DNA from: a virus
Taxonomy: Duplodnaviria; Caudoviricetes
IMG/VR virus record: IMGVR_UViG_3300028591_000184
Span: 1-64,000 of that record
Length of the DNA stretch: 64,000 nucleotides
Strand: one strand, 5' to 3'
Positions 48,155-57,604 of this stretch are shown here, piece by piece (within the stretch, counting starts at the first letter, position 1; every line of letters begins with the position of its first letter). The notes beneath the pieces are model-generated. The model was not told the origin of the DNA, ran no database searches, and was given only the letters and a program-made list of their open reading frames with translations. The translations under genes were made by a program, and so were the position numbers.

Positions 48155-48162
48155 TACCTTTG
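48155..48162 (+). promoter_or_regulatory. Bacteroidetes promoter for the early rightward region
   Basis: TTG 48132, 20 nt, TACCTTTG 48155. Confidence 0.75.
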
Positions 48163-48760: not shown

Positions 48761-48787
48761 GAAACGACACGACACGCACGAAAGCAG

Positions 48788-48820
48788 GGAGCACTTAAAA
48801 AAGTGCTCCTTCTTTTCTTT
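48788..48820 (+). terminator. Rho-independent terminator
   Basis: GGAGCACTT-AAAA-AAGTGCTCC followed by TTCTTTTCTTT. Confidence 0.8.
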
Positions 48821-48915
48821 CGCACTTTGTCAAATGTAGCTTGAATTTATTTCAAACGGTTGCAAGCCCGAACAAATACAGAGCAGACAAGTAATAACAA
48901 TTTAAACGAACGAAC

Positions 48916-49227
48916 ATGAACAGAACAGAGAAAATGATGGCTGAGCGTATGAAATGGCGCATCGGTCGTGGCGCAGGCTCGGTAGAGTTACAGCGCAGTG
49001 AATGGCTGAGGAAAACGAGAGCCGAGAGAAAACAGGACAATTCTTCCGTCATCCTCGTTGTTAACGGATGGCTTGAGTATCACCCGCAGACGATACGTCA
49101 GGCAAAAATCGAGGGACTGAGCATTATCAATCAGTTACGAGCCATGCCACACCATAAGCGTGACATCCTGACGGCTGAGGTTTATGACAAGAACACAATG
49201 ATAAAGTTATGGGAGGCAGAGCGATGA
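48916..49227 (+). CDS. hypothetical protein
   Basis: 103 aa after an A-rich leader. Confidence 0.65.
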   Translation: MNRTEKMMAERMKWRIGRGAGSVELQRSEWLRKTRAERKQDNSSVILVVNGWLEYHPQTIRQAKIEGLSIINQLRAMPHHKRDILTAEVYDKNTMIKLWEAER

Positions 49228-49397
49228 ACGAAGAATATTTCCTGTATTTCGGCAGCGGTGGTGGAACATGGCTGCCTTGCGAGAGTATTTTTGATGCTGT
49301 CAGACAGCGTGACGCATACGCAGGGCGTTGCGGTCATTCTGTCAAGGACTGGCACATCATTCAGAGGTTTAACGGATATTGGTTCGATATAGTATGA
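49224..49397 (+). CDS. small hypothetical protein
   Basis: ATGA overlap with the previous stop. Confidence 0.5.
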   Translation: MNEEYFLYFGSGGGTWLPCESIFDAVRQRDAYAGRCGHSVKDWHIIQRFNGYWFDIV

Positions 49398-49431
49398 AAA
49401 AGATATATGAATTTTTTAAGCAAATAAGATT

Positions 49432-49647
49432 ATGTTACATATAGTTGCTGAGCGGTTCCTGAGAATTGCAAACCGCCATTTGAATGAGTCAAAGATTTGG
49501 TCGGAAATATCGAGCAGACAGGAAGATTTTTTCGGCAAACGATACGCGAACAGGAAAGCGAGTGAGCATTTACAGATGGTTAAATACTGGTACATGGCAA
49601 TCGACAATCTACACTACAAGAAAGGAACGTGGGCGTACACGTTCTGA
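49432..49647 (+). CDS. small hypothetical protein
   Basis: 71 aa. Confidence 0.5.
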   Translation: MLHIVAERFLRIANRHLNESKIWSEISSRQEDFFGKRYANRKASEHLQMVKYWYMAIDNLHYKKGTWAYTF

Positions 49648-49659
49648 ACAACACAGAGC

Positions 49660-49910
49660 ACACTCAGTACGATAACTGAGTGTAATGTGGCTACCGATTT
49701 ATCGGTACTGGTTGCAAGCCCAGACAGACAACATTCAAGCGGTTAGAGCGTATGCCGAGGGGCGCAAGTCATAGCGGCAGCCGTTACGCAGGTGAAACCG
49801 ATAGCGAACGAAGACACATGGTGTCGGGCGTCGTGAAAGGGGAGTAGCCGAGAGGACAGCAGCCTGACGGCTGAAATGGTGAGCGACATGTCTACGTCCC
49901 GGTTCCTCTT
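49660..49910 (+). ncRNA. candidate GNRA-rich structured RNA
   Basis: ORF-free; hairpins capped by GCAA, GAAA and GAGA; begins ACACTCAG-TACGATAA-CTGAGTGT. Confidence 0.4.
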
Positions 49911-50639
49911 AAAAAATCATATTCTTTTAGATTATTATCTCATCTCGTGATGAGAGTACGATAATAGCCGGATGGCTACTTTCCGAGAGCGACTGCGTTA
50001 GCGCAGTACGATAAATCAGCGGATTTGTCGTGGTGGTTCCCGCCAAAAGTACGATAATTCATTTAATCACTTTAGCAGATTATCGGGTCGTGTGCTTTTT
50101 GAGCAGTACGATAATTGCCTCGTTTCAGTCTGATTTGATGTCGGGCTGGGCGTTGGTTGAGAGTTGTGTTGTTCGGGTACGATTACGGCTGCGTTGAAAG
50201 ATATTACGGGTGTAAGACCCACAGCATAAAGAATGGTTGGCAGAGGATTCAAAAACTGCCATTATCCCACGGTTGCGAGTGAAGATGCCGAAAGGGTCTC
50301 GCAGGAGAGAATGAAAACGATAATAAAAACGAAGTGGGAGAGACTACGAGAGCAGTACGATAATTCCGTATTGCTCTTGCCACAACCCAACTAAAAGTTA
50401 TGAAAAGAGTACTTTTGCATTTGCAGGCATTGGCATTATTTCTTCCGTGCCTGCTCGTTTTGAGCGATGGGCATTTCCTTGTGAATGTCCTCGGAGTTGT
50501 TTATGTGGCGGTTTTGTACCGCCTGAGTAGTACGAGAAAGGGAAAGAAATTCTTTCTCAGATACTACCATGAAATTCTCCGTTTGGAGAACATGATGTAG
50601 TCTTTCGCTGTGCATACCTGTCGGTGTGCGCAGTACGAT
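49667..50639 (+). repeat. hairpin+GTACGAT(AA) array
   Basis: GTACGAT at 49667, 49956, 50006, 50049, 50106, 50177, 50355 and 50633, all on +, mostly at the 3' base of a variable hairpin. Confidence 0.8.
50400..50600 (+). CDS. small two-TM membrane protein (cassette)
   Basis: Two hydrophobic helices; stop TAG overlaps AGTCT. Confidence 0.65.
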   Translation: MKRVLLHLQALALFLPCLLVLSDGHFLVNVLGVVYVAVLYRLSSTRKGKKFFLRYYHEILRLENMM

Positions 50640-50825
50640 ATTTTTCGGGTATAGATTTTTGAAGGCGAAGTCCTCTTGAGCCGTCCCGCCTGTGTTGTGA
50701 GCAGGGAAAACGACTGAAAATCGGACGCACGGAAGGAAAACCGTAAGACAATAAAACCTGAGCGAGTCTCGTAGGGGAGTGCGATAATACTCTCCTCTAT
50801 TTTATAAACCAACTAAAATAGAGTT

Positions 50826-51366: not shown

Positions 51367-51573
51367 ATGAAGTATTTCAGAGTAAAAAAAGAGTACGATA
51401 ATGTTCGCAGGAACGATGTCGACATATTGGTACAGAATGAGTTGTATACAGAACGAGAGGTAGACAGGTTCAAAATACCTAAGAAGTATCTCGCCGTTGT
51501 CAACGTACGGAAGAACGACACATATTGGTTTTTCGGAGCACGTTTCTCGTCTGATGTTCCATATTCATCCTAA
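51367..51573 (+). CDS. hypothetical phage protein (cassette)
   Basis: MKYFRVKKEYDN...ELYT...YWFFGARF. Confidence 0.7.
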   Translation: MKYFRVKKEYDNVRRNDVDILVQNELYTEREVDRFKIPKKYLAVVNVRKNDTYWFFGARFSSDVPYSS

Positions 51574-51631: not shown

Positions 51632-53323
51632 ATGTTATTTTTTAAAAATGCGTTTAAGAACTACGAGGAGTTCAAGGAACTCTTCGGAGTACAGGAACAC
51701 GGCAACGGAGAGAAGTCTCGTAGAAACAAAATCCTTCTGTCCTTGTATAAAAGCAAGGACATCTTGCACATGATGGCAAATCAGAAGGAGGTCTTCGAGA
51801 AAGGCGACTTTCGTTGGCTCTGCCGAAAGGAGTACCCGATGGGTGTAAGTTTCTACGACATAACGAGCATGACCTCGTTAGGTTTTGAAATTATGCACCT
51901 CCTCAAGAATGAGAGTTCTATGAGAGGTGTCTACTACCTTGACATCCCGCTTCTCGGGTCTGTAAAAAGTAGTCTGTTTGAGTCAGACGACTTTCACGGA
52001 TTGTGCGAGGATGGCGATGTCCGTTCCATCCGCTACGTCAACGTAGAGCGCCAGCGTGTCTTCAAGATGCGCGCAGGAAAATTCATGCGTAAGCTGATTG
52101 AGGAAAACGTGCGTCTCGACCAAATTCTTCCCGAGCAGGTGAAGATATGGTTCTGTGAGGATTTTGCCGAACGTTGGAAGGCGTATGCCTCCAACGAAAT
52201 CAACGACGACAGATATACGCTGTTTGTCAACGACAACTTCGAGGACATCTACGACAGCGGACGCTGCCGAGGAGATTTCGGCTCCTGCATGGTCAATGAT
52301 GGCTACTGGACTTTCTACCGAGATAGCGTGAAGGCGAAAGCCGCCTATCTGGAGGATAAAAACGGTGACATCGTCGCCCGTTGCATCATCTACACCGAGG
52401 TGCACGATGGTCTTGGAAATATCCTCCGCCTTGCTGAGCGTCAGTATTCGTCAGATGGTGACGAGACGCTGAAACGTTTGCTTGTCATGCGCCTCATCGG
52501 GGGTGGTCACATCGACGGCTACAAGCGTGTTGGTGCTGACTGTCATTCGCCGAAGGCGTTTGTCGATACCGACGGCAATGCGCTGAAGAATTGTGACCTT
52601 TGGATAGATTGTAATCTGAGAGACTACGATACCGTATCTTATCAAGACTCGTTCAAGGATTACGAACCTGACGAGTGTGTTGCAAGAAATTGTGACTCGA
52701 TTGATAACCTATCCATCACGGATGGGGTTTTCAATAGAGGCGAGTGGTCTGAGTACCACGATGAGTATATCTCCGAAAACGACGCATATTACGTCGAAAC
52801 AAGAGATGACTATTTCTATTATAACGAGGTAGTCAGTGCCAGCGTAATGCGGAATGGTAGGTATTATTCCGAGTACTGTTTCGAGGAAGACTGCGTCGAA
52901 ATCGGCAATAATTATTACTACGCCGGTCACAATGCAGAGGACTACGAGGACTATGGCATCGGACGATGCCCTGAATGTGGTAACTACTTCCTTGAAGACT
53001 GCGGGCATTATTCAGATGTCACAGACGAAACATACTGTGACTATTACTGTCTTCAAAAGGCAGAACAACGTTACAAGGAAGATAACTGGTTCTACTCAGA
53101 GTACGACGATGACTATTACGAGGACGGTGATGAAGTTGTGACGGCATGGAAGTGGGATTTTCTGCTCCACCGCTATGTGGAAACATCCATCCATTGCGAC
53201 TCTCTCAAAGAACTCTTTGAGGTCAATGAGGCTTCCTATTTTGAAGGGAGGTATTACCTCGACAAAGTCGGCTTCGACGGTGAACCTGCGCACATTGCCG
53301 CCGCCCAGCTCCATGTCGCTTAA
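51632..53323 (+). CDS. large hypothetical protein with SCM motif and acidic Cys/Tyr-rich C-terminus (cassette)
   Basis: GDFGSCM...AAYL...IVARCIIY...ERQYS core; CPEC and CDYYC repeats. Confidence 0.8.
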   Translation: MLFFKNAFKNYEEFKELFGVQEHGNGEKSRRNKILLSLYKSKDILHMMANQKEVFEKGDFRWLCRKEYPMGVSFYDITSMTSLGFEIMHLLKNESSMRGVYYLDIPLLGSVKSSLFESDDFHGLCEDGDVRSIRYVNVERQRVFKMRAGKFMRKLIEENVRLDQILPEQVKIWFCEDFAERWKAYASNEINDDRYTLFVNDNFEDIYDSGRCRGDFGSCMVNDGYWTFYRDSVKAKAAYLEDKNGDIVARCIIYTEVHDGLGNILRLAERQYSSDGDETLKRLLVMRLIGGGHIDGYKRVGADCHSPKAFVDTDGNALKNCDLWIDCNLRDYDTVSYQDSFKDYEPDECVARNCDSIDNLSITDGVFNRGEWSEYHDEYISENDAYYVETRDDYFYYNEVVSASVMRNGRYYSEYCFEEDCVEIGNNYYYAGHNAEDYEDYGIGRCPECGNYFLEDCGHYSDVTDETYCDYYCLQKAEQRYKEDNWFYSEYDDDYYEDGDEVVTAWKWDFLLHRYVETSIHCDSLKELFEVNEASYFEGRYYLDKVGFDGEPAHIAAAQLHVA

Positions 53324-56833: not shown

Positions 56834-56884
56834 TCTTACACCCTCTATGTGAGGGTACGATTGTCTAACCCAAAACAAACGGAT

Positions 56885-57550: not shown

Positions 57551-57604
57551 TCTTTAACCCTCTATTATAGAGGGTACGATGTTTAACCCCTAAAATTAAG
57601 GAAT

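What the first reader, a model, noticed from the sequence alone, without database searches (positions are those of the whole stretch)
49667..50639. Array of variable hairpins each tagged with GTACGATA(A)
Sequence: eight same-strand copies in ~1 kb of non-coding DNA. Four are spaced 43-57 nt apart (49956, 50006, 50049, 50106), and most sit at the 3' foot of a different hairpin (TCTCATC/GATGAGA, ACTGCG/CGCAGT, TGGTGG/CCGCCA, TGCT/AGCA). The same hairpin+GTACGAT recurs in two gene junctions (56855, 57574), tying it to the cassette motif. Only the tag is constant, unlike a CRISPR. Inference: (a) a processed multi-unit RNA acting as a protein sponge or antitoxin/crRNA decoy (CsrB-, pseudo-ToxI- or Racr-like logic); (b) stacked gene-less cassettes; or (c) oriented DNA loading sites.
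Basis: partly seen in the sequence, partly recalled or inferred. Interest (0 to 1): 0.75.

Follow-up and report, generated by a model that had tools for sequence, protein, structure and literature searches.

The report
Repeated tag in phage leader RNA
A family of phages of the gut bacterium Segatella (Prevotella) copri repeats the short sequence AGTACGATAAT, always on the transcribed strand, about five to nine times in a folded, ribozyme-bounded leader at the start of its early genes; it is a real, conserved and undescribed control signal whose reader is unknown.

Summary
GTACGATA occurs 10 times in the window against 1.4 expected, always on the + strand. Seven copies plus a GTACGAT variant lie in 49667-50640.

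The window is most of a 73-kb temperate siphophage genome; relatives sit in Segatella copri.

The tag is conserved without ascertainment bias. Of 80 relatives fetched only by their SF3 helicase, 66 carry at least two exact copies on the early-gene strand, and one has a copy on the other strand.

The stretch is not plain non-coding DNA. It is a structured + strand RNA leader bounded 5' by a twister-P5 ribozyme, with a conserved 66-aa two-helix membrane ORF at its 3' end. In six aligned relatives 95% of predicted pairs hold and 28 pairs show compensatory changes.

Tags sit at the 3' foot of covarying hairpins, in loops, or 16-48 nt before start codons.

Best reading (about 0.45): an RNA recognition tag displayed many times for an unidentified factor that controls early transcripts. 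DNA operator and promoter readings remain open.

Mimicry of a CRISPR repeat or ToxI, a host boxA, pairing with rRNA and a UG27 reverse-transcriptase array all failed direct tests.

Other windows of this scan described the hairpin gene-junction cassettes of related phages; none of the notes returned covers this tag outside this genome.

The parts
48155..48162 (+). Host-type (Bacteroidota) -7 promoter box TACCTTTG of the rightward early operon
   Evidence: TANNTTTG scan. Orthologous boxes sit at the same place in five relatives.
48786..48811 (+). Canonical terminator-like hairpin with a U-rich tail after the first early gene
   Evidence: Terminator scan. It shows that true terminators here carry U tails, which most tag hairpins lack (the one at 50607-50634 is the exception).
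48828..48889 (+). Twister ribozyme, P1-type
   Evidence: Rfam RF03160: 47.2 bits, E 8e-9, below the curated cut-off of 67.2. Orthologues in L265 and L266 score 53 bits.
49652..49723 (+). Twister-P5 ribozyme; its P1 loop (49668-49675) carries the first tag copy
   Evidence: RF02684: 39.7 bits against a cut-off of 37.6. Conserved in six relatives with a covarying P1. Relatives score 43 bits.
49914..49926 (+). Conserved box AAATCATATTCTT at the 5' edge of the tagged leader (candidate promoter or 5' end)
   Evidence: Conserved in the five relatives whose aligned sequence covers it (L275's aligned stretch starts further downstream). TCATATTCT lies upstream of the first tag on the same strand in 63 of 66 tag-bearing relatives.
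49938..49964 (+). Unit 1: hairpin TCTCATC/GATGAGA followed by the tag at 49956-49964
   Evidence: Helix 1 of A2 has 3 pairs with compensatory change; the tag is unchanged in 4 of the 5 sequences that cover it, L265 lacks its last A.
49992..50031 (+). Unit 2: hairpin ACTGCG/CGCAGT, whose last bases are the AGT of the tag (50006-50014). ACGATAAATC then pairs with GATTTGTCGT.
   Evidence: Helices 3 and 4 of A2 have 3 and 4 pairs with compensatory change.
50032..50085 (+). Unit 3: hairpin GGTGG/CCGCC and the tag at 50049-50057. CGATAA pairs with TTATCG around the conserved loop CATTTAATCACTTTAG.
   Evidence: Helix 6 and invariant columns of A2.
50093..50114 (+). Unit 4: hairpin TGCT/AGCA and the tag at 50106-50114, inside an insertion/deletion block
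   Evidence: Present in the window, reduced to GTACGATA in L265, decayed in L266, and absent in L268, L275 and L276.
50177..50183 (+). Unit 5: variant tag GTACGAT-TA (GTACGATGAA in relatives)
50185..50345 (+). Conserved 3' structured domain with a tag-like ACGATAAT (50317-50324) in an internal loop
   Evidence: Helices 9-13 of A2; helix 11 has 5 of 6 pairs with compensatory change. L268 and L276 have the full GTACGATAA in this loop. No Rfam match.
50349..50377 (+). Junction hairpin AGAGCA/TGCTCT with the tag 50355-50363 in its loop, 36 nt before the ORF start
   Evidence: Helix 14 of A2; enclosing stem of 8 bp.
50400..50600 (+). Conserved small two-helix membrane ORF (66 aa) with the degenerate tag GTACGAGAA at 50530-50538
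   Evidence: Family found in 73 of 100 tag-selected loci; profile hit E 2e-19. In relatives the tag sits in frame three times as S-T-I-I.
50607..50640 (+). 12-bp hairpin after the ORF, followed by the tag GTACGATA (50633-50640) and a U run
50779..50788 (+). Variant GTGCGATAAT in the loop of the next gene-junction hairpin
   Evidence: Sequence; hairpin 50773-50796.
51393..51401 (+). Outlying exact copy about 0.8 kb downstream
   Evidence: Relatives likewise keep one copy 1-2 kb beyond the cluster.
56855..56861 (+). GTACGAT at the 3' foot of a gene-junction hairpin
57574..57580 (+). GTACGAT at the 3' foot of a gene-junction hairpin

Best explanation
The tag (A)GUACGAUAA(U) is a recognition sequence that acts in the + strand RNA. 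It is displayed many times, at helix ends, in loops and in 5' leaders, within a folded leader that opens the main run of small early genes. A trans-acting reader binds several copies at once. Binding would set the fate of the early transcripts: processing, stability, read-through or translation of the first early genes, including a small membrane protein. Shown: the motif, its strand bias, its conservation, the RNA structure around it and the ribozyme boundary. Inferred: that recognition happens on RNA, that a multivalent reader exists, and what the outcome is.
For: 1. The tag is enriched and strand-pure. In every relative genome checked it is confined to one stretch of about 0.2-2 kb on one strand.
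2. It is conserved in 66 of 80 relatives chosen only by helicase homology of 51-72%. AGTACGAT is among the commonest 8-mers (top six) of 20-kb loci in five of the nine close relatives checked; in a sixth, L265, the overlapping GAGTACGA ranks first.
3. The surrounding 470 nt is a structured RNA. 95.3% of cells are paired against 38-44% in slid controls; 28 pairs carry double-sided changes against 2-9; 0 of 500 shuffles reach this. The + strand folds at -151 kcal/mol (z -4.3) against -122 for the - strand.
4. Non-Watson-Crick pairs inside stems that abut the tag are G.U-type 27 times and A.C-type 5 times, which points to + strand RNA.
5. Tags appear in the loops of covariation-supported helices: the twister P1 loop in 3 of 6 relatives, an internal loop of the 3' domain in 5 of 6, and the junction hairpin loop. 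Stems change while the tag stays fixed.
6. Spacing ranges from 15 to about 80 nt, and distant relatives have dense runs without hairpins (L117, L054, L084). This suits a flexible RNA platform better than phased DNA sites or tandem promoters.
7. The tag lies 16-48 nt before the starts of unrelated early genes.
8. The host genome shows no enrichment outside its prophage.
Against: No reader was identified. The only non-structural protein shared by all tag-bearing genomes is the SF3 helicase. In the consensus fold, tags 2, 3 and 4 are partly base-paired rather than exposed. Loops and linkers are also the only places where a DNA-level motif could sit without damaging the RNA folds or the coding sequence, so proximity to hairpins does not prove reading on RNA. 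There are no transcript data. Only 42% of copies have a stem of 6 bp or more next to them.
Confidence: 0.45

Rival explanations
1. The tags are asymmetric DNA binding sites for a transcription factor. Either they are repressor roadblocks, like the stoperators of cluster A mycobacteriophages, or they are sites for a host LytTR-type regulator or the phage SF3 helicase-initiator. A protein bound to duplex DNA would block or tune transcription, or load replication proteins, at the start of the early operon.
For: The sites are direct repeats, asymmetric and co-oriented with transcription, and the phage is temperate, with an integrase. The tag matches 8 of 9 positions of the LytTR box, and GTACGATAA itself occurs in two natural PlnC/PlnD sites (PMC2714321). 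A degenerate inverted TACGA(A/C)A overlaps the -7 box of the early promoter in 5 of 6 relatives. The SF3 helicase is the only conserved non-structural protein, and its gene is usually 2.6-4.6 kb away on the other strand.
Against: Spacings of 15, 18, 19, 30, 38, 43, 50 and 57 nt show no helical phasing and none of the 21-22 bp expected for LytTR dimers. The phage has no LytTR domain. The sites are clustered rather than dispersed like stoperators. In G008 the array lies 20 kb from the helicase gene. The match inside the early promoter is weak and inverted.
Confidence: 0.25
2. The tag is a phage-specific promoter: a single -10-like element, TACGATAAT, read by host RNA polymerase after modification by a phage factor. 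The upstream hairpin would insulate it, as in the promoter-early stem-loop cassettes of T4-type phages. The gene-less units would be emptied cassettes.
For: The tag lies 16-48 nt upstream of the starts of many unrelated early genes, which leaves room for a 5' leader of 10-35 nt. It sits between the junction hairpin and the TAACCA leader box. The array varies by insertions and deletions bounded by tags.
Against: The tag does not match the host TTTG/TAnnTTTG promoter consensus that the phage uses elsewhere. No sigma factor or RNA polymerase was found among the proteins scanned. Copies 15-19 nt apart, copies inside a ribozyme loop and three copies inside one 77-aa ORF make poor promoters. The tag is confined to one locus rather than spread over a gene class.
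Confidence: 0.12
3. The tags are targets of RNA-RNA pairing within or between leader transcripts, with anti-tag segments such as UUGUCGUG and UUAUCG. This would form a switch or an immunity circuit, like the CI RNA of phage P4 or the c4 RNA of phage P1.
For: Tag 2 pairs with GATTTGTCGT and tag 3 with TTATCG, both with compensatory changes. Tag 4 pairs with an upstream GTCGTGT. The commonest relatives have TTGTCGTG right after a tag.
Against: The pairing registers differ between units, and the pairings look like ordinary local hairpins. Tags far outnumber anti-tags. No separate anti-tag RNA gene was seen: the phage has no exact reverse-complement copy, and the one at the early promoter is not conserved.
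Confidence: 0.08
4. The array is a decoy RNA that soaks up a host defence nuclease or Cas protein (pseudo-ToxI, or an RNA anti-CRISPR).
For: The stem ends CUGC...GCAG followed by an 8-nt tail resemble a type I-F CRISPR repeat hairpin plus its handle. The tag is multi-copy in an early transcript.
Against: A search for a three-tag array in 401 Prevotellaceae genomes gave one hit, a coding-like repeat. The S. copri host has the tag only in its prophage or at chance level. The units are not near-identical and their period varies. No PADLOC family matched the six neighbouring proteins scanned.
Confidence: 0.05
5. The tag has no function of its own. It is a relic of duplications of the small membrane gene segment (S-T-I-I) and of recombination between cassettes.
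For: Tags occur in frame three times in the small ORF, with a 57-nt (19-codon) spacing. The number of units varies.
Against: The exact nucleotides, synonymous positions included, are kept in non-coding copies, in ribozyme and hairpin loops, and in phages that lack the ORF (G007, G008). Orthologous tags stay essentially unchanged while the flanks diverge to 70-80% identity.
Confidence: 0.05

Closest known systems
CsrB/RsmZ-type multi-site regulatory RNAs (from general knowledge)
   Same: One short motif is repeated many times in hairpin loops and in linkers between hairpins of a structured RNA. Spacing is variable and would suit a dimeric or multimeric binder.
   Different: The motif is a 9-11-nt AGUACGAUAAU, not GGA. 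No CsrA-like reader is known or was found. The array lies in a phage mRNA leader that also carries an ORF and a ribozyme.
Lambda nut sites and rrn antitermination leaders (boxB hairpin plus linear boxA; from general knowledge)
   Same: A hairpin of variable sequence sits next to a short constant linear element, early in a long operon that contains many downstream hairpins.
   Different: The host rrn boxA (GTTCTTTGAAAG) is unrelated to the tag. There are 5-9 copies rather than one per operon. The tags lie downstream of the first terminator.
PeSL (promoter-early stem-loop) cassettes of T4-type phages
   Same: Stem-loops plus a short conserved element punctuate arrays of small early genes. Gene content varies at these modules.
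   Different: The tag is not a host-type promoter. It marks only the first part of the operon and also occurs in gene-free tandem units, in loops and inside an ORF.
Stoperators of cluster A mycobacteriophages and the asymmetric C1 operators of phage P1 (from general knowledge)
   Same: The sites are asymmetric, multi-copy and co-oriented with transcription, in a temperate phage.
   Different: Here they are clustered within 2 kb or less rather than spread over the genome. No repressor was identified. The surrounding RNA structure and G.U bias point to RNA.
LytTR-regulator boxes (TACGTTAAT; PMC2714321)
   Same: 8 of 9 positions match. GTACGATAA occurs in the natural sites of the plnM and plnJ promoters. 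The sites are direct repeats.
   Different: There is no 12-13-bp spacer rule. The phage has no LytTR protein. The sites lie inside transcribed and folded sequence, not upstream of a core promoter.
Twister ribozymes (Rfam RF02684, RF03160)
   Same: The first tag copy lies in the P1 loop of a genuine twister-P5. A second twister lies 0.8 kb upstream.
   Different: The other units are not ribozymes: Rfam finds nothing there at E up to 10. More distant tag-bearing relatives have no twister.

Membership tests
Twister ribozyme (element 49652-49723 only) | Match to the curated covariance model at or above the gathering score, with the conserved core nucleotides | tested here: met
   RF02684: 39.7 bits against 37.6. 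CAGAG, UAAUG.GGC and GGU..CAAGCCC all align. Relatives score 43 bits.
Twister ribozyme (element 49652-49723 only) | Helices maintained by covariation in relatives | tested here: met
   P1 differs in all six relatives and stays paired.
Twister ribozyme (element 49652-49723 only) | Self-cleavage | not testable with these tools
   Needs an in-vitro transcription and cleavage assay.
Type III toxin-antitoxin antitoxin RNA (ToxI) or phage pseudo-ToxI | Tandem, near-identical repeats of fixed length (about 34-45 nt) | tested here: not met
   Only 9-11 nt stay constant. The period runs 43, 50, 57, 71 nt and beyond.
Type III toxin-antitoxin antitoxin RNA (ToxI) or phage pseudo-ToxI | A matching repeat array next to a toxin gene in the host lineage | tested here: not met
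   One unrelated hit in 401 Prevotellaceae genomes. This is a sample, not the whole lineage.
CRISPR repeat mimic (RNA anti-CRISPR) | The sequence matches a CRISPR repeat of the host | tested here: not met
   No periodic array with the tag in the 401 host-family genomes searched. CRISPR repeats that contain the reverse complement belong to Geobacillus and Acetivibrio.
boxA/boxB antitermination site | The linear element equals the host rrn boxA | tested here: not met
   The host rrn leader and spacer carry GTTCTTTGAAAG and GATCTTTGACA.
boxA/boxB antitermination site | A hairpin next to a conserved linear element near the start of the operon | tested here: met
PeSL-type promoter/stem-loop cassette | A host-consensus early promoter following the stem-loop | tested here: not met
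   The tag does not fit TTTG-N19-21-TAnnTTTG. A true host-type box exists at 48155.
Stoperator-type asymmetric operators | Sites co-oriented with transcription | tested here: met
   All copies are on the early-gene strand.
Stoperator-type asymmetric operators | Sites dispersed across the genome, including the early promoter operator | tested here: not met
   Copies are confined to one region of 2 kb or less in ten genomes. The promoter has only a weak inverted partial match.
LytTR regulator binding sites | A 9-bp box of the TACGTTAAT type | tested here: met
   8 of 9 positions match, and the tag is identical to two natural PlnC/PlnD half-sites.
LytTR regulator binding sites | Paired direct repeats about 21-22 bp apart upstream of a core promoter | tested here: not met
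   No such spacing was observed. Only about 30 nt separate the last tag from the start codon.
UG27 reverse-transcriptase ncRNA array | An adjacent reverse transcriptase gene | tested here: not met
   No RVT_1 match in six frames of the phage at E up to 1. The 563-aa neighbour has no Pfam, PHROGs or PADLOC match.

The most novel reading that the evidence does not exclude
The tagged-hairpin leader is a new kind of multivalent phage RNA. It would be a scaffold, bounded by a self-cleaving ribozyme, that displays about eight copies of an 11-nt tag to capture a sequence-specific RNA-binding protein or nuclease. That partner could be a phage early regulator or a host factor the phage needs to disable. 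The RNA would act as the master switch of early gene expression across a very large family of Segatella copri phages.
Probability: 0.3. Interest if true: 0.75.

Novelty: new variant of a known kind. Interest (0 to 1): 0.55.

Why it matters
Segatella (Prevotella) copri is one of the most abundant human gut bacteria, and little is known about how its phages control their genes. This tag is an exact signal kept over deep divergence: portal and helicase proteins fall to about 30% identity while the tag stays the same. It occurs in hundreds of gut virome contigs. That makes it a concrete handle for finding the regulator of the early programme by pull-down with tag RNA or DNA. It also gives a marker for annotating the early leader in this phage family, and a natural case in which twister ribozymes sit inside a defined regulatory RNA.

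Tried and rejected
- Literature: GTACGATAA and GUACGAUAA return no phage or Bacteroidota context. Searches on S. copri and P. copri phages gave nothing on this signal.
- Annotated phage collection: no DNA match.
- Rfam: only the two twisters match. The other units and the 3' domain match nothing. The whole-window run at gathering thresholds missed even the twister-P5, so that mode under-reports. Nine more distant relatives have no ribozyme.
- Pairing of the tag with the host 16S/23S operon is no better than for shuffled tags.
- Host boxA is a different sequence.
- Host-wide signal: the 11-mer occurs 8 times in 4 Mb, 4 of them in the prophage; three of the other four lie in long open reading frames and none is near an rRNA operon.
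- The anti-tag inside the early promoter is not conserved.
- No LytTR domain or reverse transcriptase in the phage. No PADLOC, Pfam or PHROGs families for the small neighbouring ORFs.
- A search for a protein that co-occurs with the tag found only the small membrane ORF (absent from G007 and G008) and the SF3 helicase. Genes downstream of tags are unrelated to one another.
- False positives among the pattern hits: coding tandem repeats (L077, L110, L022), a 15-nt repeat phage (G010), 18-kb contigs with another repeat, CRISPR arrays of Firmicutes, and a 42-nt repeat in Hoylesella.
- A single-protein locus search with the helicase found nothing; the alignment-based search worked.
- The 2026 preprint on UG27 ncRNA could not be opened.

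Full report
**What the window is.**
The window is the first 64 kb of a 73,045-bp contig whose ends overlap by about 176 bp, so it is a complete or nearly complete circularly permuted phage genome. It encodes a tape-measure protein, large terminase, portal, an SF3 (D5_N/DUF5906) helicase, dUTPase, two DNA methylases and a tyrosine integrase. It is therefore a temperate siphophage-like virus.

Gene starts lack Shine-Dalgarno sequences and sit behind A-rich leaders. A canonical Bacteroidota promoter box (TACCTTTG, 48155) heads the rightward operon. Related arrays lie in a prophage of the Segatella copri HDD04 chromosome and in an S. copri MAG. The host is therefore Segatella/Prevotella.

**The observation.**
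GTACGATA occurs 10 times against 1.38 expected, always on the + strand. Seven copies plus one GTACGAT variant fall in 49667-50640. The full genome has seven GTACGATAA on + and none on -. Over 359 unique contexts the extended consensus is A-GTACGATAA-T-T.

**Conservation.**
A few hits are chance coding repeats or unrelated repeat families.

To remove ascertainment bias I aligned five helicase homologues (A1) and fetched 80 relatives by that protein alone.
- 66 carry at least two exact tags on the strand opposite the helicase gene.
- Only one has any copy on the helicase strand.
- Of the 11 with no copy at all, at least six are truncated upstream of the helicase; L263 and L270 are not.

In ten whole or partial relative genomes the tag is confined to one stretch of 0.2-2 kb. 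Tag-bearing genomes share terminase, portal and helicase at only 25-50% identity. The signal has therefore been kept exact over deep divergence.

In the S. copri chromosome the 11-mer occurs 8 times, 4 of them in the prophage; three of the other four lie in long open reading frames and none is near an rRNA operon. A three-tag array was sought in 401 genomes of the host family, and the only hit was a coding-like repeat. The tag is a phage signal, not a host-wide one.

**What the stretch really is.**
Five relatives share 70-80% nucleotide identity with 49650-50400. The alignment shows, in order:
- A twister-P5 ribozyme (RF02684, 39.7 bits against a cut-off of 37.6), conserved in all six with a covarying P1. 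Relatives score 43 bits. The first tag copy is the P1 loop in the window, L266 and L265. In L268 a tag directly abuts the ribozyme's 5' end.
- A variable segment.
- A conserved box, AAATCATATTCTT (49914-49926). Its core lies upstream of the first tag in 63 of 66 tag-bearing relatives.
- Units 1-3, which are orthologous. Their stems change by compensatory substitution (TCTCATC/GATGAGA, TCCC/GGGA, TCGC/GCGA; ACTGCG/CGCAGT, ACTTGA/TCAAGT, ACTGTA/TGCAGT). Tags 1 and 3 stay nearly unchanged; in tag 2 only the AGTACG core is kept.
- An insertion/deletion block holding unit 4, followed by unit 5.
- A 3' domain of about 160 nt with strongly covarying helices and a tag-like ACGATAAT in an internal loop. 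L268 and L276 have the full tag there.
- The junction hairpin, with a tag in its loop in the window.
- A small ORF.

RNAalifold predicts 83 pairs, 28 with compensatory changes. On that structure 95.3% of cells are paired against 38-44% when partners are slid. Double-sided changes number 28 against 2-9, and no shuffle out of 500 reaches the observed values. The + strand RNA folds at -151.3 kcal/mol (z -4.3) against -121.7 for the complement. Inside stems that abut tags, non-Watson-Crick pairs are G.U-type 27 times and A.C-type 5 times. The array is thus part of a structured + strand RNA. No Rfam family other than twister matches it.

**The small ORF.**
The ORF at 50400-50600 belongs to a genuine family of two-helix membrane proteins of about 77 aa. 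The family is present in 73 of 100 tag-selected loci. In relatives the tag lies in it three times in frame (S-T-I-I). Each copy is still preceded by, or folded into, a short hairpin: CAAGUAC-GAUAAUU-GUGCUUG explains the second recurrent word, GCTTGG.

Distant relatives G007 and G008 lack this ORF but keep dense tag runs in front of other genes. Genes that follow tags are unrelated to one another, and the tag ends 16-48 nt before their start codons.

**How it most likely works.**
The following features point to recognition on RNA by a factor that engages several copies:
- strand purity;
- co-orientation with local transcription in every arrangement seen, including G008, where the array lies far from the helicase gene and on its strand;
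- display at helix ends and in the loops of covariation-supported helices;
- irregular spacing, from 15 to about 80 nt;
- position in 5' leaders.

The logic resembles CsrB or nut sites. The outcome would be control of processing, stability, read-through or translation of the first early genes.

This is an inference. No reader was found, and tags 2-4 are partly paired in the consensus fold. Hairpin proximity could simply reflect that loops and linkers are the only free positions in a densely folded region. I give this reading about 0.45.

**Rivals.**
- A DNA operator or transcription-factor site, about 0.25. The phage is temperate. The tag matches the LytTR box at 8 of 9 positions and equals two natural PlnC/PlnD half-sites. 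A weak inverted TACGA overlaps the early promoter's -7 box in five of six relatives. Against it: the spacing is unphased, the phage has no LytTR domain, and the sites are clustered rather than dispersed.
- A phage-specific promoter, about 0.12. It fits the distance to start codons. It does not fit copies 15-19 nt apart, copies inside a ribozyme loop or copies inside an ORF, and no sigma factor or polymerase was found among the proteins scanned.
- Tag/anti-tag RNA pairing of the P4 CI type, about 0.08.
- A defence decoy, about 0.05. Host-side searches do not support it, and no PADLOC family matched the six neighbouring proteins scanned.
- A relic of duplication, about 0.05.

**Tests that came out negative.**
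- A host boxA: the rrn leader has GTTCTTTGAAAG.
- Pairing with rRNA.
- A UG27 reverse-transcriptase array, a lead from earlier notes of this scan: there is no reverse transcriptase.

**Novelty.**
No paper in the searchable library mentions the motif in this context. Earlier notes of this scan describe the hairpin/TAACCA gene-junction cassettes and a large leader RNA in related Segatella phages; none of the notes returned covers this tag outside this genome. I class it as a new variant of a known kind: a multi-site regulatory leader RNA, or an operator array.

Noticed in passing
window 48828-48889 and 49652-49723: Two twister ribozymes flank three small ORFs (48916-49647). Cleavage at both would release an RNA of about 830 nt with 5'-OH and 2',3'-cyclic phosphate ends, a possible substrate for RtcB-type ligation or circularisation. 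Both ribozymes are conserved in close relatives.
   Followed up: partly
window 49914-49926; L277-L341: The box AAATCAT(AAT)TCATATTCTA is conserved upstream of the first tag in 63 of 66 relatives, and the sequence diverges right after it. It is a candidate phage promoter or processed 5' end of the leader, and it does not fit the host TAnnTTTG consensus.
   Followed up: partly
window 50185-50345: A conserved structured RNA domain of about 160 nt has strong covariation (helix 11: 5 of 6 pairs compensatory) and no Rfam match. Its segment TTGAAAGATATTAC (50201-50214) resembles TTTGAAAGATTTTAC in the host rrn leader next to boxA.
   Followed up: partly
window 50400-50600: A family of small two-helix membrane proteins (about 66-80 aa, C-terminal ...SST+.G+.FF....LRLE) is the most widely shared gene next to tag arrays, present in 73 of 100 loci. 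Its function is unknown.
   Followed up: partly
window 51632-53323: A 563-aa protein with an acidic, Cys/Tyr-rich C-terminal half has no Pfam, PHROGs or PADLOC match. It is conserved with the adjacent peptidase in the closest relative (L088/G002, 46% identity).
   Followed up: no
window 49724-49910: The purine-rich, GC-rich segment between the twister and the box is poorly conserved in sequence among the six relatives and varies in length.
   Followed up: no
L189 6879-7124 (Hoylesella saccharolytica chromosome): A 42-nt tandem repeat of 5.9 copies, each containing CGTACGATAAA, lies upstream of a 167-aa gene whose C-terminus looks AraC-like by eye (not scanned), between kbl- and tdh-like genes. 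It is probably unrelated to the phage tag.
   Followed up: partly
L270 (helicase relative, 61% identity): This phage lacks the tag. Its intergenic regions instead carry 2-3 direct CTCCCAGT repeats before a CCCCTCGGGGAGG hairpin, a different repeated intergenic signal in a helicase-related phage.
   Followed up: no
L265 17208-17280 and L266 17204-17276: Close relatives carry a tRNA gene about 5.7 kb downstream of the helicase gene, on the helicase strand.
   Followed up: no
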